Part shown: in pieces, positions 7,828 to 32,516 of the stretch
Numbering within the stretch: the stretch's first letter is position 1
How the letters are laid out: each line of letters begins with the position of its first letter
Program-made: the position numbers and the translations under genes
Notes under the pieces: model-generated
Told to the model about the DNA's origin: nothing
The model's database searches: none
What the model saw: only the letters and a program-made list of their open reading frames with translations
Origin: Ostreococcus lucimarinus
Lineage: Eukaryota
DNA length: 64,000 bases
Assembly (NCBI GenBank): GCA_000092065.1
Contig: CP000588.1
Direction: 5' to 3' (one strand)

Positions 7828-9064
7828 CTACGCAGCCAGCGGCTTCTTCATGACGATGAGATACATCGGAGAGAAGATGCCGAGATCACCGCCTTTCTCG
7901 AGGTTGACCGCAGCCTTCAACAACATGGTGTGCACGGCTTGCGTCCCCTTGGGCGCGAAGCCGATGAACTCGAGCACGCCGGTGAGGACGTGCGTCAAGT
8001 ACGCCGCCCGGCGAGCAGATTTCATGGCTTGTTGCCACGGAACGGCTCCAAGGGTGGCGCGATCAAAAGTAAACTGCACGTCGAAGCCCGCCGCCTTCGC
8101 GGCTTCAACGCAATCTTCGATGGTGCGCACTTCCGGCAGTGCGTTACCTTCAGCGATGCCATCGACGACGTCGACGTGAACCTTATTATTCGGGTCGTAT
8201 TGATCGGTGCGCAACCACTCGTAGGACGCAAAGAGGGCACCCGGTTTGAGGACTTGGAACACTTGCTTGTACAAAGCAGTGGTGTTCGACGCGTGGCACG
8301 CGGCTTCAATGGCATACGCGCCGTCAAAGGATCGACCCTTGAACACCTTCGCGAGGTCCATGAAGTTACCTTGAACGATCTCCGTCAAATCTTCCAGGCC
8401 AGCCTGCTGGTTCAAAGTGTTGCAGCGGCCAACTTGGTACTCATTGATAGTGATACCAGTCACCTTACCGCCCGTGGCCTTGACGATGTTGCGCATCGGA
8501 CCCCCAACGCCGCAGCCAAGGTCCAACACGTTCATCCCCGCCTTCAAACCAATGTTCTCCGCGATCGCTGTGCGTGTAAAACGGGTAAAGTCGCGTCAGT
8601 CGAATGCCTGCTTTTCACGGATATGCGTGTAGAACGCGTTCACGGATTCGAGACGAGTGATGCGCGCGAGACGAGCATGACGTACCGACTTCCTGGCGAA
8701 TGATGGAGTCTTCAAAGCTCTCCCCCTTTTCGCGTGCGGCGAAGTGGAAGCTTTCGCCCCAACCGTACTCGTAAAAGTCGGTGATGAGGGAGTAAAACTT
8801 GTTCACGAAGTCCGGGGTGGACAAGATGCGCGATCCGACCCCCTTACCGTCTTCTTGGTCGAAGAACTCGTTGTAAGATTTTATCCCTTTGTCCACCATC
8901 GTCTTCGCCATCGCCCCGGTCTTCCCGCCGAACGAGCGCAGCGGGTTCTTGCGGAACCAAGACAACTTCACCGCGACGTAGATACCACCAGTCAGCGTCA
9001 CCCCACCGACGATCATCTGGACTTTCTTGTCCTCGAGCGCGTCCATGACGCGCGCGGTAGCCAT
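7828..9064 (-). CDS. Sterol 24-C-methyltransferase (SMT1/ERG6 family), two exons.
   Basis: Exons 9064..8686 and 8567..7828, with intron 8568..8685: GTACGT donor, ACTGACG branch, CACAG acceptor. Splicing joins ...FHFAAREKGESFEDSIIRQEV to AIAENIGLKAGMNVLDLGCGVGGPMRNI..., matching plant SMT1 (...FHF...RHEE...VKPGQKILDVGCGVGGPMR). SAM-methyltransferase motif I is present. Confidence 0.8.
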
Positions 9065-9741
9065 CTCGAGAGACCTTTGGCGCGAAAAGTCGAGCGCGCA
9101 AGATGCGATCTCGCGCCGAACTCCGAAGCTTTACGAGCGCGGACGGCGCGTGGAGGGCGTGCGGACGTGCGAAGGGTGGCTATGGACTCCCTCGAGGACG
9201 GACGTTCGAACGAATCGAAGTCGTCGTGTGCGGCGGCGGTAATCTTTCGGAACGCCTCGTGACGTCTTCGCGGATACGAGCGCCGCCGCTGCGAATCCGA
9301 ACCCGCCGCGGGCGCGACGAAAGGCCAGACGTCGTCGGGGGACTCGCGACGAGTCGTGATTCGATCGCGTCGCACGTTTTTTATCGATCATCCGCGTCAA
9401 AGGTGAAAGATCTATCATGGCTTTGAATACGGTAAAATTGACATCGGGGGAGATGCAGAGCCTCCCGCGGACATATCGACCTAGCCCTAGATCGCCAAGT
9501 TTCGGCGCTGAGCCCTGCGCAATCAGTCGTTGTGACGCCTCACACGGACCCATATCGACTTTCTCGACTTTCTCGACTTCTACGACGCCGACCGTCGCGC
9601 GCGATTTCGCGAAAGGGCTTATGCGATCTAACGTGGATGCGGTTCAGATGATGAGATCGCTGGAGTGGTGGATTAATGGATGAATGAATTGAAATGAGTC
9701 CTAGTATATATAAAAGCGTCGCGACGGGCGTCGGTGAGCTT

Positions 9742-10736
9742 TTACGGCTTGGTCGAAACCTTCACCATCGAAGCACGGATGAGGCTACTACCGATCTTAT
9801 AGCCCTTTCTGAATTCTTCAATGATGGTATCTTCATCCATCTCGTCGTTCTCTTCCCGCATGATAGCCTCATGGTCGTTCGGGTCGAACGGTTCACCGAC
9901 GCCCGCGACGACTTGGAGGCCTTGCGATGAAAGAATTTCCATCAACTGCTTGTGCATGTTTTGATATCCCGTCAATATCTTCTCCTCACCTTCGGTCGAA
10001 CCCTTGATATTCTTCTCTGCGAGGTCAAAGTTATCGAGCACGGGCAAGAGAGCCTTGACAAAGTCCCCCTTGGCGCTGCTCGCGAGGTTCTCCTTTTCCT
10101 TGAGCGTTCGCTTGCGGAAGTTGTCGAAGTCTGCGTTCAAACGCAAGTATTGATCCTTCATCGCGGCCACTTGGTCTTCCATACCGACCATCTTTGCGTT
10201 TGCATCACCGATTTCTCCCTTGAGGGAGGCCACAAGCTCCGCTGCGTCGGCGTTATCGCCGACGACGACCTCGAGTCGACCGACGAGCGCGCTCAACGCG
10301 GTCTCCTCTTCTTCCGCACCTCCTGCGACTTCTTCGTCGTCCTCGACGACTTCAACTTCGGGCACTTCTTCTTCAGTCTCAACAGTTTCACCCTGCGCGG
10401 TGCGAGAACACGCGTTGTTTCGTCAGTCGTTCGTTCGTCCTCGTCGACCGATACCCTCGTCGCCCCGCTCCCTCGTCGCTCGCCCGTCTAATCCTCGATC
10501 CCTCGCGCGCCGTCGGCCTCGCGCGTCGCCCTCGAGTCTCGCCACGCGTCGTTCTATCGCACCTCTTCTTCCCCCGCGCGCGCGATGATCTTCATCGCTC
10601 GCGCCTCGCGCGTCGCCCCCGAAGGTGTCGAACACGCTCGAAGATTCATCTTCGCGCGCATCGTCGTCGTCGTCGTCGTCGCGCGGGCGCGCGCGCGCGC
10701 GGGCGCCGACGCGATCGAGATCGTGATCGCGGACAT
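9742..10736 (-). CDS. GrpE nucleotide-exchange co-chaperone (organellar), two exons.
   Basis: GrpE core includes LQVVAGVGEPFDPNDHEAIM. Exon 2 (10392..9742) has no ATG in frame. An upstream exon (10736..10563, MSAITIS...MKIIARAGEEE) is joined via GTGCGA donor, ACTGACG branch and CGCAG acceptor (intron 10393..10562). An alternative start is at 10847. Confidence 0.7.
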
Positions 10737-10888
10737 CCTCGGTGCGCCCGCGCGTCGGCTGCTCGACGGTTCGCGCGCGAACGAGTGGCGCGCGACGGGG
10801 TTTCCCTCGCCCTCGCGTCGTCGTCCACGCCGCACGCCGCGTCGCACCCTCGGTCGTCGTCGCCGAGACGACGCGACGACGACGGGCG

Positions 10889-11719
10889 ATGCTCGATGAC
10901 GGCGAACGACGCGCGATGACGCTCAGCACGCTCGCCGGACTCGCGACGACGCTCGGCGCGGTGGTGGCGGTGTGGAAGAAACCGGACGCGCGCGCGATGG
11001 CGTTCTTGCTCGGCGTCGCGATCGGAGTGATGACGTCGCTGTCGTTCGTGGAACTGTACGCGAAGAATGTCATCGAGCACGGGTTCTGGAGCGTCACCGC
11101 GGCGACGCTGGGGGGGGCGGGGACGTACGCGTGCGCGGCGCCGCTGTTGCCGAATCCAGAGACGCACCACGAGGCGAACGCGGGGACACCACCGAACGAA
11201 CGAACGACGATGAACGCGACGTCGAAGAGCGACGATGAAAAGGATGCCATCGCCGCTGGAAGAGTGAGCAGGGCGCGGTTGTTGCGATTGGGGATTTTGA
11301 TGGCGTTCGCGATGACGCTGCACAACTTGCCAGAGGGGTTCGCGGTGGCGTGCGCGTCGTATACGACGATTGGACCGACGATGGCGTTCGCGATCGGAAT
11401 GCATAACGTCCCAGAGGGTATCATCATCGCTGCCCCGGTGTATGCAGCGACTGGAAGCCGAAGTCGAGCCATTCTTCTCGCCACCGCGAGCGGGTTGTCG
11501 GAACCAGTCGGGGCGCTCATCGCTTTGAAATTCATGAAACCGTACCTCACTCCAACGCGTTTGGAACATCTCCTCGCCGGCACTGGTGGGATTATGGTTG
11601 CTGTGTGTGCGCTTGAATTGTGGCCCGAGGCGAGAAAATGTGGAAATAGTGACAATATGTACCGTGGGGTCATCTTTGGCGCCGCTCTGATGATGCTCAC
11701 GTTGTATCTCGGCGCGTAA
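10889..11719 (+). CDS. ZIP-family metal transporter (ZupT/GufA-like).
   Basis: HNLPEGFAVA and HNVPEGIIIAAP metal-binding helices, multiple TM segments. The start was chosen downstream of the divergent GrpE exon 1; the ORF track begins at 10742. Confidence 0.7.
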   Translation: MLDDGERRAMTLSTLAGLATTLGAVVAVWKKPDARAMAFLLGVAIGVMTSLSFVELYAKNVIEHGFWSVTAATLGGAGTYACAAPLLPNPETHHEANAGTPPNERTTMNATSKSDDEKDAIAAGRVSRARLLRLGILMAFAMTLHNLPEGFAVACASYTTIGPTMAFAIGMHNVPEGIIIAAPVYAATGSRSRAILLATASGLSEPVGALIALKFMKPYLTPTRLEHLLAGTGGIMVAVCALELWPEARKCGNSDNMYRGVIFGAALMMLTLYLGA

Positions 11720-11768
11720 AAAATCTGTTGTAGCTTTAGATTGCTCCAAACTCTATGTTGCTAGCGTT

Positions 11769-14579
11769 CTATAACAATCCTCGCAAGCTGATAACGTTAC
11801 GAGTGCTTGGCGATAGCATCGACTCGCACCGCCCGTTTGTATTCCCAGTTTCTGGAATCCCGTGCGAAACAGCTCGCATCTTCTTTTCCGTGCTCGTATT
11901 CGCTCGATAGTTTTGCCATGACGTTCCATTACTGTCTAGTAGCGTGCCTCCCCACGCAGCGTCTTCCGTAGCCGTAGATAGAAGCTCAGCCACGCGTGTC
12001 TTCACTTGCGCTTTGCCGCTGCGGTGATCCAACTCTATCGGGCCTTTACTCTCGCGCTTCAGCGTGGCGATCCCCTGAAAAAAGAGAAACTTTTGCTCCG
12101 CATCAACGCTGCTGATGAGTGAGATACTATGCATCGAACCGGGGAACCCGACTCGCATATCGCGGAGATCTTCCTCAACGAGCACCCCAGCTTCGAAGAG
12201 TTGTCTGACAAACCGTTTCAGTACGACGCAGTGCTCCTTGAAGCGCTCGTATTCCAGAAGTCCCGCACGGTTAGTGATGAATGTGTTAAACTTCTGCTGA
12301 AGATCGAGTTGACCAGTTTTCTTTTGCAACTTTTGGAACCTCACTGGTCCGAGGTTTCTGAGCAGCCTTCGACGCTGGGCTTCGTTTCGAGCAGCGAGCA
12401 TGCGCACTCCCAAATCCTCGATGGCGAACATGATAACTCGTCGAAAGCTCAGTGGGCTACAGCCAATACTGTACTTGCCCATGCTTTTGATCATATTTAC
12501 GTACACGCTACAAAGCTGCGGATTCAATAGCATCTCTTCAAATCCAGAACAGAAAATGTGAGCCAGTACGTTTTCATGGTACACGCCGTACATGACCATC
12601 TGTTTCACCAGATTTTGAAAGATGTGTTCGTCCACCTTCAAGTTTGCAAAAGTTGAACCCATCATTACCACCTGGTTCTCATTCCACTTTGACAAAGACT
12701 CTTTCATGAGTTCATCAACGTTGGTGCGGTGTTTGTTCACCGGATGACCAAATGCTCCACTTCCACATACGTACAAATTCTCGCTCCCTCGAGCAACGAC
12801 AAACGTGGATGATTTGGATGCGTAAACCTGCTCAGCTTTAACTTCATACATCGGATGTCGCTCGATCTCTTCTATTTCCGACTTCTTCAAGGCGAGACGA
12901 TCGGTGACTGATAACGCTGGCTGTAACTTTTTCGGCGTAGTCGCCGTGGCGATTGACCCGTCGCCGAGTTGACCAAAGTCGTTTGATCCACAGACAAAAA
13001 CGTCGCCAAGCGTTGTCAACATGACGGTGTGATTATCACCAGCTCCGATTTGAACGATGAAAACGTTCACCATAGTAGACACCAGTGTCACCAAACTTCG
13101 ATCTACCGTGTCGCTCAATCCCAACTGTCCATCGGAACCGCGTCCGCAGACGTATACTCGACCCTTCTCTGTTAGCATTACTGTGTGCTCCTCTCCCCCG
13201 ACGACCTGCACGACCTTGTGACGAACCTTTTCCAACGCCACACAGCTTTCGCTTACGTCTTTGAGAGCCGTCATCTCGTTGATGAACCTCTGTTCAAGCT
13301 GGACCGAGTCGAGATGGATTTCTTCCACGTCGACTCGTTCCGGAACACCGCCGACGAACTCGTCGTGCCCCATGCGTCTGGGAATGAAAATATTCGAAAA
13401 GTCACCGCATCCGAGCTGACCACAACTATTTGAGCCAAATCCATAAACGTAACCCGAATCGGTCACTACGAGTGTGTGATTGCTACCGCAAGCCACTGAA
13501 GACACGTTCATAAGAGTGACAGATTCCACGAGCTTTGGCTTGGCGTAGTTAACCCCATCTCCGTGACCGAGTTGACCGCAATCTCCAACGCCGAAAGTGT
13601 AAACTTGCCCTGAGCCCGTTGTTATGACCGTGTGTGCTGAGCCCGCGGCACAAGACACCACCTTCGTCGTGGCGTTGGTCATCCAGTACATCCACTTTGG
13701 TGTGTTGTGAATCCGATTCAAACCGCTCTCACCGTGGCCAGTGCAACCGCCTACATCTTCCCCCCACGTCAAGCACTCCTGTCCTGATGTCACCGCTACC
13801 GAGTATCGGCCGCCTGCGGCGACATCTACAGCCTTCGCTCCGTCAATGACGTCGAGCGCCACCGGAACGTCCTGAGACGTCGTCGTTCGAAGACCGAGTT
13901 GCGATGACTCATCGGATCCCATAACAAGTATCCGTCCGTCGTGATCAGTATACGTAGGAGCGATATGTTCCAGCGCCTCTGGGTTGGATTCAAGAAGAAT
14001 AAGCGCATGATCGTCCCCACCAGATATTTTCTTCACCCGCGACCCCAATGGTAGACTGAACACAACTGGCTTGACGAACCGGTGCAAATGAGACGGCACT
14101 CCACGTAAGTTCTTCAATCGAGTCTCCATGTAAGCCACTCTCTCTTCGGACGTCGCATTGGCCTTACTCCCGCGATTACGAAATAAAATATTCATATATC
14201 CACCGACCGCAGGTTCACCGTCCGCGTCTACATCGTCGTCGGCTGCGTCGGTTGTTGTCAACGTTAAAGACGTCGCTGGTTCGTCCAAACGCGAGGCGCC
14301 TTTCTCCGCGAGCATCGCAACCGCAAGTTCTTCTTTCTCCACTTCGCGATCGGATCGTAATATTTCTACATCTTCTTCGTCATCGGACTCGCTCCATCTT
14401 AGCTCATCCACATCATCCGGGTTGCGGAACGCCCCCGTCTCGCGCTCGCGCCACTCGACGCGATGAATCGTCTCTACAAACTTTTGCTTTACTCGGTCCT
14501 CTTCGGTGTAACGAAGGACTGGAATACCCCAAGCGTTGATATTGACATCATCCCCATTGTTTGCGCCCGAGGGTTCCAT
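11769..14579 (-). CDS. RCC1-repeat protein (regulator of chromosome condensation-like), 936 aa.
   Basis: Multiple RCC1 repeats with GQLG(L/H)G signatures (CGQLGHGDG, GQLGCGD, GQLGLSD, GQLGDGS). Acidic N-terminus. Confidence 0.7.
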   Translation of the reverse strand: MEPSGANNGDDVNINAWGIPVLRYTEEDRVKQKFVETIHRVEWRERETGAFRNPDDVDELRWSESDDEEDVEILRSDREVEKEELAVAMLAEKGASRLDEPATSLTLTTTDAADDDVDADGEPAVGGYMNILFRNRGSKANATSEERVAYMETRLKNLRGVPSHLHRFVKPVVFSLPLGSRVKKISGGDDHALILLESNPEALEHIAPTYTDHDGRILVMGSDESSQLGLRTTTSQDVPVALDVIDGAKAVDVAAGGRYSVAVTSGQECLTWGEDVGGCTGHGESGLNRIHNTPKWMYWMTNATTKVVSCAAGSAHTVITTGSGQVYTFGVGDCGQLGHGDGVNYAKPKLVESVTLMNVSSVACGSNHTLVVTDSGYVYGFGSNSCGQLGCGDFSNIFIPRRMGHDEFVGGVPERVDVEEIHLDSVQLEQRFINEMTALKDVSESCVALEKVRHKVVQVVGGEEHTVMLTEKGRVYVCGRGSDGQLGLSDTVDRSLVTLVSTMVNVFIVQIGAGDNHTVMLTTLGDVFVCGSNDFGQLGDGSIATATTPKKLQPALSVTDRLALKKSEIEEIERHPMYEVKAEQVYASKSSTFVVARGSENLYVCGSGAFGHPVNKHRTNVDELMKESLSKWNENQVVMMGSTFANLKVDEHIFQNLVKQMVMYGVYHENVLAHIFCSGFEEMLLNPQLCSVYVNMIKSMGKYSIGCSPLSFRRVIMFAIEDLGVRMLAARNEAQRRRLLRNLGPVRFQKLQKKTGQLDLQQKFNTFITNRAGLLEYERFKEHCVVLKRFVRQLFEAGVLVEEDLRDMRVGFPGSMHSISLISSVDAEQKFLFFQGIATLKRESKGPIELDHRSGKAQVKTRVAELLSTATEDAAWGGTLLDSNGTSWQNYRANTSTEKKMRAVSHGIPETGNTNGRCESMLSPSTRNVISLRGLL

Positions 14580-17262: not shown

Positions 17263-18713
17263 ATGTCCACCACCGTCAAGTCTTGGGACGAACTTCGCGC
17301 GTCCCACACCGCGTCGACGTCGAGCTGCGTGAAACGGCTGACGGAAGACGCGCAGGCGCGCGCGCGCGGCGGTGGACCGGCGCATCAGGACAACGCGCTG
17401 CGATTGTTCGGCGCGCGCGAGGAGGACGTGCGGGTGACGTTTTATCGCGACCACGCGGGGGTGCGTGCTGAAGCGACGCGCCGTCGCGTCGGCGCCCCAG
17501 CGCGCCGCCCGAGCGCGCGGTTTGGATTTGGCGATTCGCGGCGAACGGAGAACGAAAGACTGACGCACGAACGCTCTCACTCGCGCAGTGGTGCCCGTAC
17601 TGTCAAAAGCTTTGGATCATGCTCGAAGAAAAACAAATCCCGTACCGAGTGGAGAAGATCAACATGCGATCGTACGGCGATAAACCAAAGGCGTTTCTGG
17701 ACAAGATTCCGAGCGGGCTGTTGCCGGTGGTGGAGATCGACGGGAATATGATCACGGAGAGTTTGGTCATCATGCAAATCCTCGAACGCGAGTTCCCGGA
17801 GCGACCGACGCTTCCCGAGGATAAGTTTGAGGCGGCGAACGTGCTTTTGAAGCTCGAACGTCAGTTGTTTTCGGATTGGTGCGGCCTCGTGTTTCGGCCC
17901 TCGATGCCGGGACCGCTGGGAGCGAGAGCGGGATTCGAAAAGACGTTGGACAAGGTCGACGAAGCGCTCGGCTCTACGGAAGGACCATGGTTTCTCGGGG
18001 GAGAAAGTCCAAGCATTGTGGACTTTCAGTACGTCTCGCACGTCGAGCGCATGAACGCGAGCGTTCTGTATTGGAAGGGACTGCAAATGCGCGGCACAAA
18101 GCGTTGGGCCAACATAGAAAGGTGGCTCCTCGCGTTTGAGGCGAGACCGACGTATCAGGCGACAAAGAGCGACTACTACACGCACATCATGGATATCCCA
18201 CCTCAATATGGACCGGGATACGCCGATAAAAACGCCGCGGTGGACGAAGCTGTGGCGGTCATCGGCGGCGAAAAGAGTTGGCGATTACCGGTTTCTCTAT
18301 CTGCTGACGGCTTGGAGCCGCTTCCGGAATCTATGAACCGAGGTGAAGAGGACGCAAAGCATGAAGCAGCGTATAAACTGATTGCAAACTCTGCAAATAT
18401 CGTCAAGTTTGCTTGCAGAGGTATGGGCGAGCCAGGTCGCAAGCAGTTCGGTGCTCCGCTCGCGGATCCTTATGCGGTCCCGAATTTAAACTACGAAAGT
18501 CGCGTCGATGAATGCTTGCGAAAGGTGGCGCAGGCTCTGATCGAGGGTACCGCCGAGCCATCGGAACCAAGTTCGAATACAAGCTCGGAGGCGAAATCCG
18601 TTCGTAAATGTCTAGCATACCTGCGCGATCGCGTCGGGGTCCCGCGAGATATGAGCTATCCCGCGGCGATGCAACTCAGAGCGCACTTAAACTGGTGCGC
18701 CGACTCGCTTTAG
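17263..18713 (+). CDS. Glutathione S-transferase-like protein (thioredoxin-fold N-domain with CPYC), two exons.
   Basis: Exon 1 (17263..17460) ends ...VRVTFYRDHAG, followed by a GTGCGT donor. Intron 17461..17588 has an ACTGACG branch and CGCAG acceptor. Exon 2 (17589..18713) begins WCPYCQKLWIMLEEKQIPY... Splicing restores the canonical GST N-terminus that the ATG-only ORF (17619) lacks. A possible transit-peptide start is at 17140. Confidence 0.7.
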
Positions 18714-18757
18714 ATCGCTTGCTTAGTATTGATACAGAGATTTTTCTATGCGCTAAT

Positions 18758-23600: not shown

Positions 23601-24347
23601 TGAGCGCGGTTTGCCCGCCCATCGTCGGCAACAAGGCGTCCGGCTTTTCGCGCGCGATGATTTGCTCAACGCTCTCCGGCGACATCGGCGTCACATACGT
23701 GCGACTCGCCGTCTCTGGATCCGTCATAATCGTCGCCGGGTTCGAGTTCACGAGCACGACTTCGTATCCTTCGGCGCGCAACGCCTTGCACGCCTGGGTC
23801 CCAGAGTAATCAAACTCGCACGCCTACCAAAGTTCAAACTCGCACCACCGTCAGTCTTTCCGCGCCCGTGTCGAGACGACGAACGAAACACAATTAATTC
23901 TCACTAAACCGTTCGCGCCAATCCCCCGAAGCGTCGCTACCCCGCGCGTCGCTCCCTCGCGATCGCCCCCGCCGCGGTTTGAATATTTAAAAACGCGCCC
24001 GCGCTCGCGTTCGCGATCACCCCCTCCCATCCCGCGCCGTTCGCCTCTCCTCCCTCCCCGAGCGCGTCATCGCGCGCGCGCACCTGTCCGATCACGATCG
24101 GTCCCGCGCCCAGGATCATGATCTTCTTCAAGTCGGTTCTCTTTTGGCTCTTCGTCGCCTGATCCCACGCTCGAAAAACCTCGCTCTCGCCACCCATCGC
24201 GCGCGCCGCGTTCGCGACGCCGCGTTTGAGCGCGTTCGGGCGCGCGTTTCCGCGACTCGCGCGTTTCTTCTCGCGCGTGATCGAGTTTTTCCGCGCGAAC
24301 TCGCGTCGGAGCGCGACGCGCGCGGGGGCGAGCGCCATCGTCGCCAT
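20620..24347 (-). CDS. carB: Carbamoyl-phosphate synthase large subunit (CarB, bacterial/plastid type), two exons with a presequence.
   Basis: Exon 2 (23823..20620) is 1053 aa, collinear with CarB from [35 protein letters not shown] onward. Exon 1 (24347..24084) encodes MATMALAP... (presequence) up to ...[20 protein letters not shown]. Intron 23824..24083 has a GTGCGC donor, ACTGACGG branch and GGTAG acceptor. Confidence 0.9.
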
Positions 24348-24431
24348 CGACGCGGCGGCGCGCAGTGCGGCGCGGCGATCGCGGCGGGGCGATCGCGGGA
24401 CGCCTGGTGGCGTGCGCGACGATGGGGCACA

Positions 24432-24539
24432 CCGTCGGCGAGTCACGAACCGTCGACGAGTCACGAACCGTCGACGAGTCACGAACCGTCGACGAGTCAC
24501 GAACCGTCGGCGAGTCACGAACCGTCGGCGAGTCGGCGC
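24432..24539. repeat. Six tandem copies of an 18-bp unit (CGTCG[A/G]CGAGTCACGAAC).
   Basis: Directly visible. It lies about 85 bp upstream of the CarB ATG, within the divergent promoter/5'UTR region. No spacers, so not CRISPR. Confidence 0.85.
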
Positions 24540-24704
24540 GTCGTCCCCGCGGACGCCCGTCGCGCCGTCGGCCCGTCGCGCGCGGGGCGTCGCGCGCGCG
24601 CGACGCGCGCGCGATTCGTTCGCGGACGACGACGCGACGGCGCGACGCGCGACGCGCGAGGGGCGAACGTCGGACGCGTCGCCGGCGACGCGCGACGGAC
24701 GACG

Positions 24705-25367
24705 ATGGCGACGCGACGCGCGCGAGCGACGACGCGACAGCCGCGCGCGAAGGACGCCGCGGCGGACGCGGCGGACGCGCGCCGGGGGAAGGGCGCGGCG
24801 TCGACGCGGGAACCGCGACGGGCGGAGCTGCGCGCGGAGAAGGCGGCGCGATGGCCGATGTGCATGGCGATCGCGATCGAGAAGACGACGGTGGTGCGAG
24901 GGGTGGTCGTCGCGTGCGCGGCGGTGGCGCTGGCGGTGGCGCTGACGTTGATGGATTGGAGCGACGACGGGGCGGGGGCGTTTTTGAGAAAGATTCGATG
25001 GGCTCTGAACCCGTTGAGCGTGTTCGTGGCGTGCGAACTTAACGTTCTCATCACCGCGTTCGTGGTGTTGTTTCCGGTGACGTACGCGCAGGCGGCGATC
25101 GACGAGCGAGAGGGAGTGGAGGAGAGCGACACGCTGCGGTTGTTAAAACTGCCAGCCATCGTCGCGGAGTTCGCGGTCGGGAGCAAGGTGGCGATCGCGC
25201 GCTTGGGGGACGTCATCGTCAGAGATTTTTCGCTCTTCATGGTCGTTTACTTGTCGTTCGCTGGGTATTGGCTCGCGTTGGATGGCGATCCGATCGATAG
25301 CGGCGTCGGCGCGTCGAGCGTGCACGAAATGGAGGGCGGCGTCTCCGTGCACTCGTTGGTGCAATAG
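24705..25367 (+). CDS. Hypothetical membrane protein with an Arg/Ala-rich presequence.
   Basis: ATG at 24705 sits downstream of the divergent CarB exon 1. Hydrophobic helices VVVACAAVALAVALTLM and VLITAFVVLFPV. No family recognised. Confidence 0.3.
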   Translation: MATRRARATTRQPRAKDAAADAADARRGKGAASTREPRRAELRAEKAARWPMCMAIAIEKTTVVRGVVVACAAVALAVALTLMDWSDDGAGAFLRKIRWALNPLSVFVACELNVLITAFVVLFPVTYAQAAIDEREGVEESDTLRLLKLPAIVAEFAVGSKVAIARLGDVIVRDFSLFMVVYLSFAGYWLALDGDPIDSGVGASSVHEMEGGVSVHSLVQ

Positions 25368-25646
25368 ATGGACGCCGAGCGTCGACGATGAGGATCTAGT
25401 CGTACCATTAGCGTTGTATGAGATGTAATTTTTCGCGCAAATCAGCACGCTCGATTAATCATCGGTCGATCGGGTCGGCGCCGTCGCCGCACAGCGCGAC
25501 GCGGCGGCGAGCCGGTCGCGCGCATGCGCTGCGTCCTCGCATCGCAGCGCGCGAGTCAGACGGGGACATCAGTAACGCCATACCGCGTTCGTCGCACGCG
25601 CACCGCGTCTCGTATCCTCGCACGCTCGTCCTTCGGGTCCGTCGTC

Positions 25647-26181
25647 ATGAGTTCTGGCGAACACGAAATCGTTCGCTCGGGGACGTGTTTTTGCGAACAC
25701 GCCAAAGTCACGGTCACTGGATCCCCAGTGGCGGTGAGCATATGTCACTGCACGATCTGCCGCAAGCTCTGTGGGGCGCCGTTCTCCGCACAAGCGCTGT
25801 GTAAGGCGGAGCAAGTGAAGATCGAGCACGAGGGCGAACCGACGGCGACGGCTTCGAGCGCAAACGTTGATCGATGCCGGTGCGCAAAGTGTGGAAGCCC
25901 GATATACGCATCGTTGATGAAGGTACGACCGTAGATTGAAAATTAGAATTCGCCACCGTCATCGCGACGAAGCCGACTGACGCGCGTCGTCGCTTGAAAA
26001 ACAGGGAAAAATGATCGCCGTACCGCTCTCCGTGCTCAATACGCGCGCGAGCGACGACTTGAAGCCGACGCATCACATGTACTACGGACAGAGAATCGTG
26101 GAATGCGCGGGGGATGGTTTGCCCAAATTTTTAAAATCCAAGGGCGAGCTCTGGACGCCCGAAAGCGACGCAATGATGTAA
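25647..26181 (+). CDS. GFA/CENP-V family Zn-binding protein (Mss4-like fold), two exons.
   Basis: Cys ligand pattern CFCEH...CHCTICRK...CRCAKCGSP. The ORF ends just before a GTACGA donor (intron 25923..26004: ACTGACG branch, AACAG acceptor). Exon 2 (26005..26181) adds ...PTHHMYYGQRIVECAGDGLPKF..., the family's usual C-terminal region. An upstream alternative start is at 25524. Confidence 0.5.
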
Positions 26182-26322: not shown

Positions 26323-27701
26323 ATGGGTGGGGGTTTAGGTACGTCGTTCGTCCGTCGTCGTTTCGTTCGTTCGTTCGCGTGCGGCCGCGTGGGTGCCGCT
26401 CGAAGACGTGAGAATCGTCTCAACTTTTGCGGCGACTGACCGCGCATTTTCGTTCGTTTGCGACAGCTTTTTTGCACAAGAAATCATGGCATACCGCGGG
26501 TATGGCGGTGCAGGAAGACGTGTGGAAGCGGGAGCAGCAGGCGGAGCACGAAAAACGACGGCTGGAGGAGATGAAGAAGGAAATTGAAGACGAGCGCAAG
26601 CAGGCGGAAATGAAAGCGGAGGCGGTTGCGTCGGGTCACGTGATGAAACCAACGCAAGAACGCTTGGAATTCATGTATAAAGGACGCGTTGGGGAAGCTG
26701 CTCCGGCTCCAGTATCTGTAGACGAGCGCGTGATTGGTAAGAAGCGGTTCGAGCTCGCGGTGGAGGAAGGGGCCAACTTGGCGGCGCAGGCAGAGGAGAG
26801 GCAGGAAGAGGCGCACTCGAAGAACGAAGCCTGGAACAGACTGAATGCCGATCCGTTGTTAGTGATGAAGCAGCGCGAGTTGCAGTCAAAGCAGTACATC
26901 ACGAATAATCCGGTGAAAATGGCACAATTGAAGGATGAAAGCCGGGCTGAGAAGGAGCGGAGGCGAGCAAAAAAGGAGGCAAGACGAGACAAAAAGCGTT
27001 CGAGCAAACGCGATAAACGCAGTAGAAAATGCGACTCAAGCTCGGAGTCGAGATCTCGCAGTAGAAGTCCGAAGAGAGAGCGTCGTAGACATCGTTCGCG
27101 CTCGCCACGTCACCGTAGTAGGCGCTCGCGATCCCGTTCTCGGTCTCGCAGCAGAAGCCCGAGGCGGTCAGACAGGCGAAGTAGAGACGATCGCGACCGA
27201 CGTGATCGACGCGATTTACGAGACAGCCGTGGCTATGACGACAAGTACGATCGTAAGAGGCACCGTGATGGAATTGCTCGCGACGATGCGCACGCACAAG
27301 ATGCGTCAAAAGGATTCGGGTTGACGTATGCCCATGAAACAGCCGAGGATGCGGCGGCTATTCGGCGAGGCAAACGATCAAAATGGCGCGAAGAAGAGGC
27401 AAAACGCGCGGCAGAGCGCGCACCAGAGCCGGAATGGCGAGGTGGAAACAACGCTGGTCATAGAACGGGAAGATTGACCGCTGAAGAAAAAGCCGCGCGA
27501 CTAGCCGCAATGTCGGCGGATGCTTCAGCGCACGACGAGGCGAGGATTTCAAAACTGCGCAAGAACGTCGGAGAATTAGGTGAAGAGATGAGTTTCGTGG
27601 AGGAAGCGGCGCGAGGACCCGATAGACACCATTCAGATGCGCCTGCGTTCATCGCGAAAGCGCGTTCATCCGTGTATGGCGAGCCGTCGTCAAGACGTTA
27701 G
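26323..27701 (+). CDS. Pre-mRNA splicing factor CWC25 homolog (Cir_N domain plus RS-rich tail), two exons.
   Basis: A 16-nt first exon (ATGGGTGGGGGTTTAG, MGGGL) is followed by GTACGT. Intron 26339..26466 has an ACTGAC branch and CGACAG acceptor. Exon 2 gives AFLHKKSWHTAGMAVQEDVWKREQ..., which matches the CWC25/Cir_N start MGGGDLNLKKSWHP...VWKAEQ. Downstream are LEFMYKG and an SR/RS-repeat region. Confidence 0.7.
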
Positions 27702-27922
27702 TGCGTTAGCGAGCGAGGAGCACTTGTAATTTTCATGGGATTTTAGGTTGTTATTGAGAGTTGCGTGGTGCGGTCCGCTGAAAAATGCACCCTAACTCGT
27801 TCTATGTTATTGATCTACGGTAGGTCTTGTGAATGAGACGTTCGATTTCCAAGCAGCAATCATTGTACACGTTCGATGTCTCAGGCATGCGAAACTCCGA
27901 GGGAAGAATCAGAGAAAAAATT

Positions 27923-28579
27923 TTAGTACATGGCGTTCGTCGGAACTTGTTGATCGAAATTCGGAACGGCCAGCTCATCGTCCATCATGCCGTCCATGGC
28001 AGCCCAATTCTCCGAGAATATGTCTCCCCAGAAATTGTTCTCATCCGCCGTGGATTTCTCCATGTGCTTGCGACCCTCCTCCTCGCCGAGCAAGCCTGTC
28101 ATGAAGTTCTCGAACACTCCCGGCGCCAAATCATCGATTGACGGCACGGTTGCGTCTTCAGAAGGCACAGATGCCTTCTGTTGTCTGTTGTACTTTCTCT
28201 GTGATGGTAAAAAACCGTAAAAAATAGTCAGTCTCTGAGTTCTCATTCGCCGCCTCATATGGACAAGTGAAGATAAACGACGCACCTTTCTCCCAACCTC
28301 CTCTTGCTCAAACTGCGGCACCGTGTGCTCGGCGGCGCTATCACTCGGAGACATTCTTGTCCCAGCTTCTTCACCCGCGCCCATCGCCTCGAGCTCGACT
28401 CTGGTGTTCGCGAACAAAAATCTCTGATGCTTCCTGGACGTCGCGTTCGCCTCGTGAATGCTCACGTCGCACACGCGGCACAAAAACGCCCGGTCCTCGT
28501 GACAAATCACGTACGCCGGATTCATTTGGCACACATCGCACGAAAGTTCGTCCGAGCCATTCCCACTCGCTTGTCTCAA
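27923..28579 (-). CDS. B-box zinc-finger protein (plant BBX-type). Contains an in-frame 87-nt intron; the start is unresolved.
   Basis: B-box signature CDVCQMNPAYVICHEDRAFLCRVCDVSIHEAN...KHQRF. Segment 28198..28284 has an AAG|GTGCGT donor, GACTGACT branch and a T-rich tract before CACAG, and is stop-free. The ORF track start at 28579 is TTG; the true ATG is probably in an unplaced upstream exon. Confidence 0.6.
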   Translation of the reverse strand: MRQASGNGSDELSCDVCQMNPAYVICHEDRAFLCRVCDVSIHEANATSRKHQRFLFANTRVELEAMGAGEEAGTRMSPSDSAAEHTVPQFEQEEVGRKVRRLSSLVHMRRRMRTQRLTIFYGFLPSQRKYNRQQKASVPSEDATVPSIDDLAPGVFENFMTGLLGEEEGRKHMEKSTADENNFWGDIFSENWAAMDGMMDDELAVPNFDQQVPTNAMY

Positions 28580-29418
28580 TCCGACGCGTTGCGTCGTCGA
28601 TCGTCCACTGCCGCGCTTCGCCGTTTGCCTGTTCGCTCGAAATAATCACCGCGGTCAGTCCAAGGCTCGTTGTGCGGCGGTAATCCAGCGCCACGCGCCG
28701 CGCTGATTATCCGCGCTTTTCCATCGCCGCGCATCGCCGTTCGCGTCGGATTCGCGCGCGGACGGTGGAGAGAATTTACGCGCATCGATCGCCCCGCGCG
28801 CGCGTCCACGCCCGCGCGCGCGCGCGCCGCGACGCGCGCGCCAACCCTCACCCAACCCATGGGTGCCTCGCGACCGCGGCGTTCGAATCCGCGACGCATC
28901 GCGCGCGTGCGCACCTCGTATCGCACCGCGCGCACGCGCACAGCGCGACGCCGGTTTGGGATTCCACGCGCACGACCGCCGCAGGGGCTTCCGCGCACGT
29001 TCCGCACATCACGTCCGGCATGACGCGCGAAAGATCGTTCGAAGTCGTCCGCGGACGGCTTTGCGTGTGCCGAAGTGCCGCGCGCGGTCGCGCGGCGTCG
29101 CGTCGCGTCCCGCGCGCGCTTCGTCGAGTCATGATCGGTCGATCGACCCACTCGAAAACCCACACTGAATCCGATCCCAAACGAGCGGCCGACGCGTTCC
29201 CGCGCGTTAGCGTTGATGGATAAGAATATACAGGGGGGACACGCGTTGAGTCACGATCGGCCGAACGACGCGCGGGAAAAAACTTTTTCCAAAAAAGGCG
29301 GCGCGAGGTCGTTAAATACGCGGGAAAAAGACGTTGGACTGTTGGAAAAGCGAAGCGCGACGGCGCGGTCGGTCGGTCGGTTGGGAGGGCGGCCGTCGTT
29401 GCAGAGACAAGGTTCTAT

Positions 29419-31659
29419 CTACGCCTCGAGCGCGCGCTCGAGGTCTTTGCTCGCGGCGTGGGCGATAACTTCGGGGAATAAGCTCACGATGAAGGCCTCC
29501 AAGGCGACGAAACCGATGTGACGACAGCACGTCGGGCTTTGGAGCAAGGAGTAGACGTCGAGCGCCGCTCTCGCGCTCGCGCGCGTTCCCATGATGGTTT
29601 GCACGGTTTCGTTCGTGAAGACGCCGAGCAAAGCTTGTCGAGCGGTTTCTGCTTCACGTGCCAAGCGAGCTGGGGTGTCTGGGGGATACGGCGACTCGGG
29701 CCAAACGACGCGACGAATCCACGAGAGCGCGCGCGCCATGGAACCGGCGCTGCGAAAGTCACGGAAACGCTTGCTAATCGATCGCTCGATGGAGAAAAAA
29801 AACTCAATTGTCTGACGCACCAAAGAAACGAGTGCGCGTCGCATCATCGGTTTCGAGCGCAACGTGAAGACGCACTCAAAGAGGTCGAGCACGGGTCCGT
29901 TCATGCAACTCTCAACCTCAGCCACGAAGGCGTCTTCGTCCTCGCCATCGCCGTTCGTCTCGGAAGCGCTCTCGCTTCGCGTCGTCTTCGACGTCGGCTC
30001 AATGGATGATGAGTTCACACTCGGTACCGTGGGTGTGGGTTCTTTGTACATGGACGACATCCGAGTGTGTCGCGGAGGCTTTTTTGAGCCAAGCGTCGGC
30101 GCTTCACCTGGCGCTCTATCTTCGTCAACAGTCTCCCCACCGCCCATTAAATCACTCGTTGAGTTCGAAACCATCGTTGCCATGCCCTCCATTGCTTCTG
30201 TCATGGTTTTCATGAGCTCGGGGGCGATGCTCCCACGGTCGGGATCGTAAATTCCTGGCCGCGCGTCTAAAAACGTAAACAGCTCGCTACTCTCCGCGAG
30301 ACTTTTGCTCGCCAGGATCGATTTCATGTACGTATCGAGTGCCTTTCTACGAGTTTCCATGAAAACACCGCTCAGAGATGTCCTTATCCACGATTTACTC
30401 GGGAACTCTAAACCGTTCGTGGCTTCTCTGTCGACGTCGCGAAGGCGTCGATGAAGCGTTTCAAAATTACGAAACCGCCGAGGGACAACCCAAGTTTGAT
30501 CTTCGTTCGTGTTCACAGTCACCAGATACACGGCATATGACGAACTTCCAGAACCCACGATCTCCGCACCCGTGATGCGAGCGGAGAGTTTGAAGTCTGA
30601 GTACAACCCTGTCAACGCTGCGTCGATGCTATCGCTCGCCGTTCGACTGTGAGTCGCCAACGCATTTGTCTCAGAACGTCGTTCAGAGACATTTGCCGAG
30701 TCATCAACAACCGTCGTGCCTTCAGATTCTATCGACAACATATCCTTGACTTCCTCTTCGTCGTAATCGACGTTTGTACCTGTCAAGTACAGAACACCTC
30801 GATTCGCCCATCTCGGCTCGGCGAATCGAAGAAGAGGCCTGAGCAATGAAACGACGATGAGTTCGCGCACGAGTGCGGTCGTGAGACCCGAAGCGAATTC
30901 ACCATCCATCAAAGCATCCGACATCACCAAAGATAGGGCTCGAAGCGCGCGTGTGGTCTCGATTTCGCCACTCACCGCCGGGTGAAGCTCTCCTTGCTTT
31001 CGCAAGACGCACGCCAATACGTCCTCCGCGTCTTCCGCGCAAAGCTTCCGGAATTCGGACTCACCCACCTCCTCGCGAGCACTACGATACGATTCTAAAC
31101 TCTGCGACAGCACGTCTGGAATTTCTCTCAACGCAAAAGACACCAGGTCCATCTCTCGCGCTCGTCGAGCTAGCTCTGCGAACGCACCATCGAGTATTAT
31201 TCGAATCGCATTCGGGACGTCCAAGTCATCCGTCATCGACTCGTACCACAACGAAACCACGTACTCCGTTATAATCTTTTCTCTCACTTCCCCCCACGCC
31301 GCAAAAACCTCCGGATAATCGCTCAAGAGTTCCTCCACCGACGCCTTAATATTCCTCGTCGCCGCCGCCTCGCGCGTCTCGTCGCCGCGCGTCGCCGCGC
31401 CCCAGCGCCTCTCCCTCCTGGATGACCGTCGTTCGCCACCCCTCGCGAGCGCGCTCGCGACCACGACGCACACCGCCGTCACGACGCTCGCCACGGGCGC
31501 GTTTCCCAGCGTCGATCGCGACGTTTTCGCCAGCGCGTGCGCGACCAGCGTCGTCATCGCGAGCGCGACGCCGAGCACCATCCTCAACTCGCGCGTCGTC
31601 TTCACGCCCAATCGCGCGCGCAGGACGCGCGCGACGCCATCGATCGCGTCGCGGGGCAT
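29419..31659 (-). CDS. Sorting nexin with PXA, PX and Nexin_C domains (SNX13/19/25-like).
   Basis: N-terminal TM helices, a PXA region (FAAWGEVREKIITEYVVSLWYESMTDD...) and a PX domain (YAVYLVTVNTNEDQTWVVPRRFRNFETLHRRL). Start chosen at MPRDAIDG (31659). An alternative ATG at 31782-31780 shares a CATG with the Rab5 start codon. Confidence 0.7.
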   Translation of the reverse strand: MPRDAIDGVARVLRARLGVKTTRELRMVLGVALAMTTLVAHALAKTSRSTLGNAPVASVVTAVCVVVASALARGGERRSSRRERRWGAATRGDETREAAATRNIKASVEELLSDYPEVFAAWGEVREKIITEYVVSLWYESMTDDLDVPNAIRIILDGAFAELARRAREMDLVSFALREIPDVLSQSLESYRSAREEVGESEFRKLCAEDAEDVLACVLRKQGELHPAVSGEIETTRALRALSLVMSDALMDGEFASGLTTALVRELIVVSLLRPLLRFAEPRWANRGVLYLTGTNVDYDEEEVKDMLSIESEGTTVVDDSANVSERRSETNALATHSRTASDSIDAALTGLYSDFKLSARITGAEIVGSGSSSYAVYLVTVNTNEDQTWVVPRRFRNFETLHRRLRDVDREATNGLEFPSKSWIRTSLSGVFMETRRKALDTYMKSILASKSLAESSELFTFLDARPGIYDPDRGSIAPELMKTMTEAMEGMATMVSNSTSDLMGGGETVDEDRAPGEAPTLGSKKPPRHTRMSSMYKEPTPTVPSVNSSSIEPTSKTTRSESASETNGDGEDEDAFVAEVESCMNGPVLDLFECVFTLRSKPMMRRALVSLVRQTIEFFFSIERSISKRFRDFRSAGSMARALSWIRRVVWPESPYPPDTPARLAREAETARQALLGVFTNETVQTIMGTRASARAALDVYSLLQSPTCCRHIGFVALEAFIVSLFPEVIAHAASKDLERALEA

Positions 31660-31780
31660 CGCGTCGTCGCGCGTCGCGCGTCGCGCGTCACCGCGTCGCG
31701 CGGTGACGACGCTCGTCGGCACAATCCGTCGCGTCGCGTCGTCCGCGTCGCGAGCGCGAACGAACACGACGGAGCGGAAC

Positions 31781-32516
31781 ATGGCGAGCGACGGCCGTGG
31801 GGCGGCGATCACGCAAGCGAAACTGGTGCGCGAGCGACGCGCGGGCGCGCTGACGCGACGACGCGCGCGCGTCGTCGGCGCGACGCGTTTTTCTCGACGT
31901 GAGATTCCGCCAACGACCTCGACTGACGACTGCTTGCGGCTCGCGACGACGCGCACAGGTGCTCCTGGGGGACATGGGGGCTGGGAAGTCATCGCTAGTG
32001 CTGAGATTCGTCAAAGGTCAGTTTCACGAGTACCAAGAGAGCACGATCGGGGCGGCGTTCTTGACTCAGACGGTGTGCGCGGACGATCGAACGATCAAGT
32101 TTGAAATCTGGGATACCGCCGGACAAGAGCGATATCACTCGCTCGCGCCGATGTATTACCGCGGTGCGGCGGCGGCGATCATCGTGTACGACATTCAAAG
32201 CCAGTCGAGCTTCGCGCGAGCGAAGAGTTGGGTGCGGGAATTGCAAAAGCAAGGAAACGCCGCGCTCGTCATGGCGCTGGCGGGGAATAAGTGTGACATG
32301 GAGGAGAAACGAGAGGTCGAGCGAGAGGAAGCGGAGGCGTACGCGTCGGAGAATGGGTTATTCTTCATGGAAACGTCCGCGAAGGAGGCGTTGAACGTCA
32401 CTGAATTGTTCCATGAAATCGCGGTGAAGTTGCCAAAGGCGCCCACGCCGACGAATGGGCCGGGGGTGGTGTTGACGAATCAGAATCGTACGCCGCAGAA
32501 GAGCCAGTGCTGTTGA
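31781..32516 (+). CDS. Rab5-type small GTPase (plant RabF/ARA7-like), two exons.
   Basis: Exon 1 (31781..31825) encodes [15 protein letters not shown]. Intron 31826..31958 has a GTGCGC donor, GACTGACGA branch and CGCACAG acceptor. Exon 2 begins [34 protein letters not shown]... Together these reproduce the ARA7 N-terminus ([35 protein letters not shown]). The C-terminus is ...QCC (a cysteine-pair prenylation motif). Confidence 0.85.

What the first reader, a model, noticed from the sequence alone, without database searches (positions are those of the whole stretch)
8568..31958. Uniform short-intron architecture with a strict ACTGAC branch site, a micro first exon and an in-frame 'invisible' intron
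Eight introns had to be invoked to restore conserved protein termini or motifs. They are in SMT1 (8568..8685), GrpE (10393..10562), GST (17461..17588), CarB (23824..24083), GFA (25923..26004), CWC25 (26339..26466), the B-box gene (28198..28284) and Rab5 (31826..31958). All are 82-260 nt. All begin GT[A/G]CG, end in CAG or TAG, and have (G)ACTGAC(G) about 25-35 nt upstream of the acceptor. The CWC25 first exon is only 16 nt (MGGGL). The B-box intron is 87 nt and stop-free, so a naive ORF caller translates it as protein. This strict grammar resembles the near-yeast-like splice-signal rigidity reported for reduced picoeukaryote genomes. It means ORF-only annotation of this window mis-calls N-termini for several genes: the B-box gene still lacks its ATG exon, and others may too.
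Basis: partly seen in the sequence, partly recalled or inferred. Interest (0 to 1): 0.5.

Follow-up and report, generated by a model that had tools for sequence, protein, structure and literature searches.

The report
Known Ostreococcus intron signals, confirmed here
The eight proposed introns are real spliceosomal introns of the tiny green alga Ostreococcus lucimarinus, and their rigid GTGCG…GACTGAC…CAG signals were already described for this species in 2008, so the finding is correct but ordinary.

Summary
The window comes from Ostreococcus lucimarinus CCE9901: spliced proteins match its NCBI entries exactly. All eight proposed introns exist and carry G|GT[AG]CG, GACTGAC and CAG/TAG. The branch A lies 24-32 nt before the acceptor. 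The only coordinate error is the B-box intron, which is one base off (true 28199..28285). I found two more introns with the same signals. One is B-box intron 1 (28629..28914), which supplies the "missing" ATG exon (28915..29021). The other is a MED10 intron (32756..32858). RNA-derived public contigs that are 99-100% identical to the window lack exactly nine of the ten introns and nothing else across 19.3 kb. The CWC25 intron is the exception. It is unspliced in all three RNA contigs that cover it, and it rests on comparative evidence: the 16-nt coding exon differs only at third codon positions in three other species, and the spliced protein aligns with human CWC25 from residue 1. The strict pattern occurs 9 times against 0.25 expected. 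Irimia & Roy (2008) reported this grammar for non-chromosome-2 introns of this species: ACTGAC in 87%, GACTGACG in 66.5%, 5' consensus GTGCGTG. At least eight of the ten introns are already in the NCBI gene models. Verdict: real, correctly interpreted, already known.

The parts
8568..8685 (-). SMT1 (sterol C-methyltransferase) intron, 118 nt, phase 1. Signals: G|GTACGT ... cGACTGACg ... CAG.
   Evidence: Absent from RNA contigs L003 (JGI, 100% identical) and L002 (Logan). The Pfam CMAS domain runs unbroken across the junction. The spliced 372-aa protein equals an MMETSP transcript product. NCBI model P0024 has the same junction.
10393..10562 (-). GrpE intron, 170 nt, phase 0. Signals: G|GTGCGA ... 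cGACTGACg ... CAG.
   Evidence: Absent from L004 and L005, which come from two sequencing runs. The spliced 274-aa protein equals XP_001419369.1 exactly. L002 starts inside this intron and reads through the acceptor, so it is partly unspliced.
17461..17588 (+). GST-like gene intron, 128 nt, phase 0. Signals: G|GTGCGT ... aGACTGACg ... CAG.
   Evidence: Absent from L029-L031. The junction rebuilds YRDHAG|WCPYCQK, which is contiguous in dozens of orthologues, including transcriptome-derived ones. NCBI partial model P0199 has the same junction.
23824..24083 (-). CarB (carbamoyl-phosphate synthase large chain) intron, 260 nt, phase 0. Signals: G|GTGCGC ... aGACTGACg ... TAG.
   Evidence: Absent from L035-L037. 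The spliced protein aligns without a gap to E. coli CarB residues 3-147 across [14 protein letters not shown]. The spliced 1105-aa form equals XP_001419372.1.
25923..26004 (+). GFA-domain gene intron, 82 nt, phase 0. Signals: G|GTACGA ... cGACTGACg ... CAG.
   Evidence: Absent from L026-L028. The Pfam GFA domain (profile positions 2-114 of 115) spans the junction. The intron is missing in the species of L034, where LMKGRM is contiguous. It is present at the same site in L032 and L033.
26323..26338 (+). Coding part of CWC25 exon 1 (ATGGGTGGGGGTTTAG, encoding MGGGL plus the first base of an Ala codon).
   Evidence: Conserved in three other species (L032-L034), with changes only at third codon positions. 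It restores the MGGG N-terminus, which aligns with human CWC25 from residue 1.
26339..26466 (+). CWC25 intron, 128 nt, phase 1. Signals: G|GTACGT ... cGACTGACc ... CAG.
   Evidence: Comparative evidence only. Position and signals are conserved in L032-L034 while the interior has diverged. Orthologous ORF calls diverge exactly upstream of AFLHKKSWH. Against: it is unspliced in L026-L028. No spliced junction was found in two JGI scans. The exact spliced protein is not in the collection.
28199..28285 (-). B-box gene intron 2, 87 nt, phase 0, in frame and free of stop codons. Signals: G|GTGCGT ... aGACTGACt ... CAG.
   Evidence: Absent from all 7 RNA contigs that cover it: L001 and L014-L019. Its translation is not conserved and varies in length among orthologues. 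The position is conserved in L032-L034. It is part of XP_001419373.1.
28629..28914 (-). Signals: G|GTGCGC ... gGACTGACc ... CAG.
   Evidence: Absent from L001 and L019. Retained in L014 and L016-L018; L015 also reads through the donor and intron but starts only 8 nt upstream of it. The three-exon 241-aa protein equals XP_001419373.1 exactly.
28915..29021 (-). Coding part of B-box exon 1 (MPDVMCGTC...CDT plus 2 nt): the 'missing' ATG exon.
31826..31958 (+). Rab5-like GTPase intron, 133 nt, phase 0. Signals: G|GTGCGC ... cGACTGACg ... CAG.
   Evidence: Absent from 8 RNA contigs, L006-L013. The Ras domain starts at residue 14, ahead of the junction at residue 15. The spliced 200-aa protein equals XP_001419155.1.
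32756..32858 (-). Signals: G|GTGCGC ... cGACTGACg ... TAG. Branch A is 33 nt from the 3' end.
   Evidence: Found by listing every ACTGAC site and modelling the splice. Absent from the same 8 contigs, L006-L013. The spliced 128-aa protein equals XP_001419375.1; the Med10 Pfam hit is recorded on the contig gene.

Best explanation
These are ordinary U2-type GT-AG spliceosomal introns of the nuclear genome of Ostreococcus lucimarinus CCE9901. They belong to the 'normal' intron class of this intron-poor genome, meaning introns outside the low-GC part of chromosome 2.

Shown here: ten introns of 82-286 nt in nine genes. Nine of them are removed from RNA. All ten share three signals:
- an extended 5' splice site, G|GU(G/A)CG;
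- an invariant GACUGAC branch site, 24-33 nt upstream of the acceptor;
- a CAG or UAG acceptor, with no polypyrimidine tract.

Inferred from general spliceosome knowledge, not tested here:
- U1 and then U6 snRNA pair with the extended 5' site.
- U2 snRNA pairs with GACUGAC and bulges the penultimate A as the branch nucleophile.
- The narrow branch-to-acceptor distance selects the acceptor without U2AF-type reading of a pyrimidine tract.

In an intron-poor genome, selection can hold every intron near the optimum signal. This is the explanation given by Irimia & Roy 2008. Because the signals are so rigid, the motif predicts introns almost perfectly in this window. ORF-only callers, by contrast, truncate these genes or read through them.
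For: Organism. Spliced GrpE, B-box, Rab5, MED10 and CarB proteins equal NCBI entries of O. lucimarinus CCE9901 on a 701,771-bp record.

RNA evidence. 28 RNA-derived contigs cover 19.3 kb of the window. They lack exactly nine segments, and all nine are the grammar-conforming introns (exact sizes). Several contigs have introns removed from genes on both strands (L006-L013). That excludes genomic deletions as the cause.

Homology across junctions. Pfam domains, E. coli CarB, human CWC25 from residue 1, and GST orthologues.

Signal statistics. 10 of 10 have G|GT[AG]CG and GACTGAC, 7 of 10 have GACTGACG, and 8 end CAG and 2 TAG. The strict pattern occurs 9 times against 0.25 expected.

Other species. 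Intron positions and signals are conserved while the interiors diverge.

Literature. In EST-confirmed non-chromosome-2 introns of this species, 87.2% have ACTGAC, 66.5% have GACTGACG, and the 5' consensus is GTGCGTG (PMC2483917).
Against: The CWC25 intron has no spliced RNA support. Three RNA contigs retain it and two junction scans found nothing.

B-box intron 1 is retained in most RNA contigs, so splicing is not uniformly efficient.

The nature of the Logan and JGI samples (RNA versus DNA) could not be read from metadata. It is inferred from the contigs themselves: introns are missing on both strands, and contig ends fall at gene ends.

The branch adenosine, the snRNA pairings and the chromosome number were not tested.

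Intron discovery in the 45 kb not covered by RNA contigs relied partly on the motif itself, so introns without the grammar could have been missed there.
Confidence: 0.95

Rival explanations
1. CWC25 has no 5' intron. Translation starts at the internal Met (MAVQED...), and the upstream MGGGL plus GT...AG arrangement is coincidence.
For: All three RNA contigs that cover the site (L026-L028) are colinear with the genome there, although the GFA intron is spliced out of the same contigs. Exact and degenerate junction scans of JGI contigs found nothing. The 416-aa spliced protein is absent from a collection of 15 billion proteins.
Against: ATGGGNGGNGGNTTAG|GT is conserved in four species, with changes only at third codon positions. 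It is followed by a diverged intron of about 130 nt with ACTGAC or ACTAAC 25-30 nt before a CAG. AFLHKKSWHTAG, which lies upstream of the internal Met, is conserved as protein. It matches the Cir_N domain from residue 12, and human CWC25 aligns from residue 1.
Confidence: 0.07
2. The 87-nt in-frame B-box segment is coding sequence, or an alternatively retained coding insert, rather than a constitutive intron.
For: It is a multiple of three and has no stop codon. Several orthologous genomic ORF calls also read through it (P0003, P0005, P0006, P0009-P0011).
Against: It is missing from all 7 RNA contigs. Its translation is unconserved and varies in length between species, whereas the flanks are more than 80% identical. 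In other species it contains stop codons or shifts the frame (P0012-P0017; the L033 intron is 110 nt). It carries the full splice grammar.
Confidence: 0.03
3. The uniform signals exist because the introns are copies of one mobile element, like the introner elements of Micromonas.
For: Identical GACTGAC and GTRCG motifs in every intron. Introner families exist in the related genus Micromonas (PMC4540971, title and abstract seen).
Against: Between the 5' site and the branch site the intron interiors share only short CG-rich runs. The best local score is 26 in segments of 130-280 nt. Four introns occupy the same positions in three other species, with diverged interiors, so they are old.
Confidence: 0.02
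4. The motif co-occurrences are chance, and the 'introns' are artefacts of forcing ORFs together.
For: ACTGAC alone is not over-represented in the window (26 copies against about 29 expected). A loose version of the pattern is easy to find by chance.
Against: The strict pattern occurs 9 times against 0.25 expected. RNA contigs lack exactly these segments. Spliced products equal curated proteins.
Confidence: 0.01

Closest known systems
Non-chromosome-2 introns of Ostreococcus lucimarinus, as described by Irimia & Roy 2008 (PLoS Genet 4:e1000148; PMC2483917)
   Same: Same organism, same ACTGAC / GACTGACG branch motif, same atypical GTGCG(T) 5' site, and similar lengths (the genome median is 111 nt). 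Window frequencies are 10/10 for ACTGAC and 7/10 for GACTGACG. These fit the published 87.2% and 66.5%.
   Different: Nothing of substance. Three of the ten donors are GTACG rather than GTGCG. The branch-to-acceptor distance of 24-33 nt is measured here for these ten introns only.
Introns of hemiascomycete yeasts (GTATGT ... TACTAAC ... YAG)
   Same: An intron-poor genome with near-invariant 5' and branch-site motifs, a short and narrow branch-to-acceptor distance, introns biased towards the 5' end of genes, and very short coding first exons.
   Different: The motif sequences differ: GTGCG against GTATGT, and ACTGAC against ACTAAC. The lineage is unrelated, so this is convergence according to PMC2483917. 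Related Ostreococcus-like species in L032 and L033 do use ACTAAC, GTGAGT and GTATGT at some of these same introns.
Short introns of the low-GC mating-type region of chromosome 2 in Mamiellales (PMC2367439; PMC13298755)
   Same: Same genomes and the same spliceosome.
   Different: Those introns are 40-65 nt, have weak 5' and branch signals, and are often retained. The window's introns are longer and GC-rich and carry full signals.
Unpredicted '3n' introns without stop codons (Roy & Penny 2007, PMC1950532)
   Same: B-box intron 2 is exactly this case: a length that is a multiple of three, no stop codon, invisible to ORF logic. That paper inferred that about 1,290 such introns were missed in the O. 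tauri annotation.
   Different: Here the intron is already in the NCBI gene model for O. lucimarinus. Only ORF callers run on metagenomes miss it.

Membership tests
U2-type GT-AG spliceosomal introns | GT at the 5' end and AG at the 3' end | tested here: met
   10 of 10.
U2-type GT-AG spliceosomal introns | Removed from mature RNA at exactly these borders | tested here: met
   9 of 10 are absent from RNA-derived contigs, with deletion sizes equal to the predicted lengths. CWC25 was seen only unspliced.
U2-type GT-AG spliceosomal introns | Branch-site adenosine in a CTRAY context upstream of the acceptor, used to form the lariat | tested here: inconclusive
   The GACTGAC motif is present in 10 of 10, 24-33 nt upstream. 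Actual branch usage cannot be tested without lariat data.
U2-type GT-AG spliceosomal introns | Removal restores a continuous, conserved protein | tested here: met
   plus exact matches to curated proteins.
O. lucimarinus non-chromosome-2 intron class (Irimia & Roy 2008) | The organism is O. lucimarinus | tested here: met
   Exact identity to XP_001419369.1, XP_001419373.1, XP_001419155.1, XP_001419375.1 and XP_001419372.1.
O. lucimarinus non-chromosome-2 intron class (Irimia & Roy 2008) | ACTGAC branch motif, often extended to GACTGACG | tested here: met
   ACTGAC in 10 of 10, GACTGAC in 10 of 10, GACTGACG in 7 of 10.
O. lucimarinus non-chromosome-2 intron class (Irimia & Roy 2008) | Strong 5' site with consensus GTGCGTG | tested here: met
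   GTGCG in 7 of 10 and GTACG in 3 of 10. Positions +4 C and +5 G are invariant, and the last exon base is G in 10 of 10.
O. lucimarinus non-chromosome-2 intron class (Irimia & Roy 2008) | Located outside the low-GC half of chromosome 2 | not testable with these tools
   The proteins sit on a 701,771-bp record, and the window GC is 57.4%. The chromosome number could not be read with these tools. It is inferred from intron type and gene density.
Introner-type repeated intron families (Micromonas) | Introns are alignable to each other over most of their length | tested here: not met
   Only short CG-rich matches. The positions are shared with other species.

The most novel reading that the evidence does not exclude
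Two introns here may be deliberately inefficient. The start-proximal intron of CWC25, itself a splicing factor, is unspliced in 3 of 3 RNA contigs. Intron 1 of the B-box gene is retained in at least 4 of 7 (a fifth contig, L015, also reads through it), while intron 2 of the same gene is always removed. Both introns carry perfect signals, and in both cases retention removes the conserved N-terminus. This could be regulated intron retention: autoregulation of a spliceosome component, or light/clock control of a B-box factor. That would stand out in a genome where splicing is otherwise near-constitutive. A second untested idea is that the +4 C of GUGCGU is matched by a compensating change in U1 or U6 snRNA.
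Probability: 0.1. Interest if true: 0.35.

Novelty: already known. Interest (0 to 1): 0.1.

Why it matters
The grammar itself adds nothing new. It was published for this species in 2008 and revisited for Mamiellales in 2026, and at least eight of the ten introns are already in the NCBI gene models.

There are three practical points:
- In this window the strict motif finds introns with no false positives (9 hits, all of them verified introns).
- ORF-based callers used on marine metagenomes systematically truncate or read through Ostreococcus genes. This produces many wrong protein entries in large catalogues.
- The spliced forms of GFA and CWC25 were not found among NCBI entries. They may be small corrections to the public annotation.

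Tried and rejected
- A motif-free scan of every GT...AG pair joining two coding-like ORF segments gave 276 candidates. Nearly all were alternative borders of known introns or boundaries between neighbouring genes. It could not be used to find introns that lack the grammar.
- A relaxed scan (GTRNG, NCTRAY, NAG) combined with coding scores recovered known introns and gave no other convincing candidate.
- Six other GACTGAC sites were rejected as chance: 3871-, 6147-, 52685-, 59597+, 62549+, and a loose pattern hit at 63151-. They lie inside continuous ORFs or on the strand opposite a gene, or they lack a donor or a YAG at the right distance.
- Two scans of JGI contigs for a spliced CWC25 junction found nothing.
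- Exact look-ups of the 416-aa CWC25 protein, and of a strain variant, failed.
The intron was confirmed through the neighbouring Rab5 contigs instead.
- A chimeric protein query was swamped by GST hits. It still yielded the CWC25 orthologues.
- Rfam and tRNA scans found no RNA genes in the window, so U1, U2 and U6 snRNA could not be examined.
- The 1.1-kb ORF-free stretch 6733..7827 holds no plausible exons.
Full report
**Observation.** I extracted all eight proposed segments. On the coding strand each begins GT[AG]CG, ends CAG or TAG, and carries ACTGAC near its 3' end. Lengths are 82-260 nt. The B-box coordinates are one base off: the true intron is 28199..28285 on the minus strand. Splicing each segment out gives one long open frame with a plausible start codon. 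Reading through gives an early stop in seven cases. In the B-box case it gives a 29-residue in-frame insert.

**Identity of the sequence.** Exact look-up of the spliced proteins shows that the window is Ostreococcus lucimarinus CCE9901. These spliced products equal NCBI entries on a 701,771-bp record:
- GrpE (274 aa) = XP_001419369.1
- B-box protein (241 aa, three exons) = XP_001419373.1
- Rab5-like GTPase (200 aa) = XP_001419155.1
- MED10 (128 aa) = XP_001419375.1
- CarB (1105 aa, starting MGGESEV) = XP_001419372.1

The NCBI models for SMT1 (P0024) and GST (P0199, partial) use different ends but contain the same splice junctions. I did not find the spliced GFA and CWC25 proteins among NCBI entries.

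**Two further introns.** The B-box gene's 'missing' ATG exon is 28915..29021. It is separated from exon 2 by a 286-nt intron (28629..28914) with G|GTGCGC, GACTGAC and CAG. Listing every ACTGAC site in the window exposed one more intron, 32756..32858 on the minus strand. It joins ...AAGTVNE to TVKGKANVY... in a Mediator subunit 10 gene. That makes ten introns in nine genes.

**RNA evidence.** Public assemblies hold short contigs that are 99-100% identical to the window, end near gene ends, and lack the introns. I aligned 28 of them to the window. Together they cover 19.3 kb. Exactly nine segments are missing, with these sizes:

| Gene | Size (nt) | Contigs lacking it |
|---|---|---|
| SMT1 | 118 | 2 |
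| GrpE | 170 | 2 |
| GST | 128 | 3 |
| CarB | 260 | 3 |
| GFA | 82 | 3 |
| B-box intron 2 | 87 | 7 |
| B-box intron 1 | 286 | 2 |
| Rab5 | 133 | 8 |
| MED10 | 103 | 8 |

Contigs L006-L013 lack the Rab5 intron (plus strand) and the MED10 intron (minus strand) at the same time. This is what merged cDNA of convergent genes would look like, not a genomic deletion. No other gap appears, so within the RNA-covered part every splicing event obeys the grammar. This check does not depend on the motif. I could not read the sample metadata, so the RNA origin of the contigs is an inference from these properties.

**Homology evidence.** Pfam domains run unbroken across the junctions of SMT1, CarB, GFA, Rab5 and GST. 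CarB aligns without a gap to E. coli CarB residues 3-147 across [14 protein letters not shown]. The GST junction rebuilds YRDHAG|WCPYCQK, which is contiguous in dozens of orthologues, including transcriptome-derived ones from distant algae. The B-box 'insert' is unconserved and varies in length between orthologous genomic ORF calls, and it is absent from transcript-derived ones. The flanks are highly conserved.

**The CWC25 micro-exon.** This is the only intron without spliced RNA support. Three RNA contigs (L026-L028) have the neighbouring GFA intron removed but are colinear with the genome across 26339..26466. Two scans of JGI contigs for the junction found nothing.

The comparative evidence is nevertheless strong. 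In syntenic contigs of three other Ostreococcus-like species (L032-L034), ATGGGNGGNGGNTTAG is conserved with differences only at third codon positions. It is followed directly by GT. Next comes a diverged intron of about 130 nt, with ACTGAC or ACTAAC 25-30 nt before a CAG. After that the conserved AFLHKKSWH coding sequence begins. The spliced protein aligns with human CWC25 from residue 1: MGGGLAFLHKKSWH against MGGGDLNLKKSWH. I rate the intron about 0.9 likely to be real. The '16-nt first exon' is 16 nt of coding sequence. The exon also contains a 5' UTR of unknown length.

**Anatomy of the ten introns:**
- The last exon base is G in 10 of 10.
- The donor is GTGCG in 7 and GTACG in 3.
- GACTGAC is present in 10 of 10, followed by G in 7.
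- The branch A lies 24-33 nt from the last intron base.
- The acceptor is CAG in 8 and TAG in 2.
- There is no pyrimidine tract: the pyrimidine fraction after the branch site is 0.42-0.68 in the nine introns measured.
- Seven introns are phase 0, two are phase 1 and one is phase 2.
- Only B-box intron 2 has a length that is a multiple of three.
- Most lie near the 5' end of the coding sequence.

**Statistics.** ACTGAC alone is not enriched: 26 copies on both strands, against about 29 expected from base composition (my arithmetic). A loose pattern is also common by chance. The strict pattern is G|GTRCG, then GACTGAC 30-270 nt downstream, then YAG a further 18-28 nt downstream. It occurs 9 times, against 0.25 +/- 0.48 in 200 Markov simulations, and all 9 hits are verified introns. 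The tenth intron, MED10, falls one base outside my spacing window.

**Is it a repeat family?** No. The intron interiors share only short CG-rich runs. Four of the introns sit at the same positions in other species with diverged interiors. The GFA intron is absent in one species, where LMKGRM is contiguous. That also validates the junction.

**Comparison with what is known.** Irimia & Roy 2008 (PMC2483917) analysed EST-confirmed introns of this same species. Outside chromosome 2, 87.2% contain ACTGAC and 66.5% contain GACTGACG. The 5' site is strong (4.8 bits), with the 'atypical consensus GTGCGTG'. Roy & Penny 2007 (PMC1950532) had already argued that stop-free introns whose length is a multiple of three are under-predicted in O. 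tauri. Condon et al. 2026 (PMC13298755) describe branch-point and 5' splice-site signals across Mamiellales and their decay in the mating-type region. The finding is therefore correct and already known.

**Mechanism.** Shown: the introns are removed at these borders, and the motifs are invariant and at a fixed position. Inferred from the general model of splicing: U1 and then U6 pair with G|GUGCGU, U2 pairs with GACUGAC and bulges the A, and the fixed distance selects the acceptor. Whether U1 or U6 carries a change that compensates for the +4 C could not be tested. The window holds no snRNA gene, and no collection available here holds the rest of the genome.

**Verdict.** Novelty: already known. 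Interest is low.

Noticed in passing
28629..28914 (-): B-box intron 1 is retained in RNA contigs L014 and L016-L018, and L015 also reads through it. Intron 2 of the same gene is removed in all seven contigs. Retention leaves only a 171-aa product that starts at an internal Met.
   Followed up: partly
26339..26466 (+): The start-proximal intron of the splicing-factor gene CWC25 is unspliced in all three RNA contigs that cover it, although the GFA intron 335 nt upstream is spliced out of the same contigs.
   Followed up: partly
31780..31783: The Rab5 ATG (plus strand, 31781) overlaps an in-frame ATG (31782..31780) within the ORF of the divergent PXA/PX/Nexin_C gene on the minus strand, in a CATG palindrome. 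The longer minus-strand ORF from the ATG at 31992 would run through Rab5 exon 1 and its intron. The true start of that gene was not settled.
   Followed up: partly
17589..18713 (+): The NCBI GST model XP_001419151.1 (P0199) omits a 46-residue C-terminal stretch (QFGAPLADPY...SSNTS). RNA contigs L029-L031 and their product P0192 keep it. This is probably a falsely predicted intron in the public annotation.
   Followed up: partly
L032, L033, L034 (syntenic GFA-CWC25-B-box loci of other species): Related species are less strict. At the same intron positions they use GTGAGT or GTATGT donors and ACTAAC branch sites. One species lacks the GFA intron.
   Followed up: partly
6733..7827: About 1.1 kb between two convergent genes has no credible ORF and a GC content near 0.50. 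That is long and AT-rich for this very compact genome. RNA contig L002 extends into it as far as 7516.
   Followed up: partly
L006 = window 30281..34119; L004 = window 9717..11819: RNA contigs routinely join neighbouring genes on opposite strands (PXA-, Rab5+, MED10-, DAGAT+; Zip+ and GrpE-). This implies overlapping UTRs or transcripts in this compact genome.
   Followed up: no
24144..25367 (+) / 24515..25240 (-): A very GC-rich stretch (0.67) between CarB and GFA has long ORFs on both strands and no assigned gene. RNA contigs L026-L028 cover 24574..25923.
   Followed up: no
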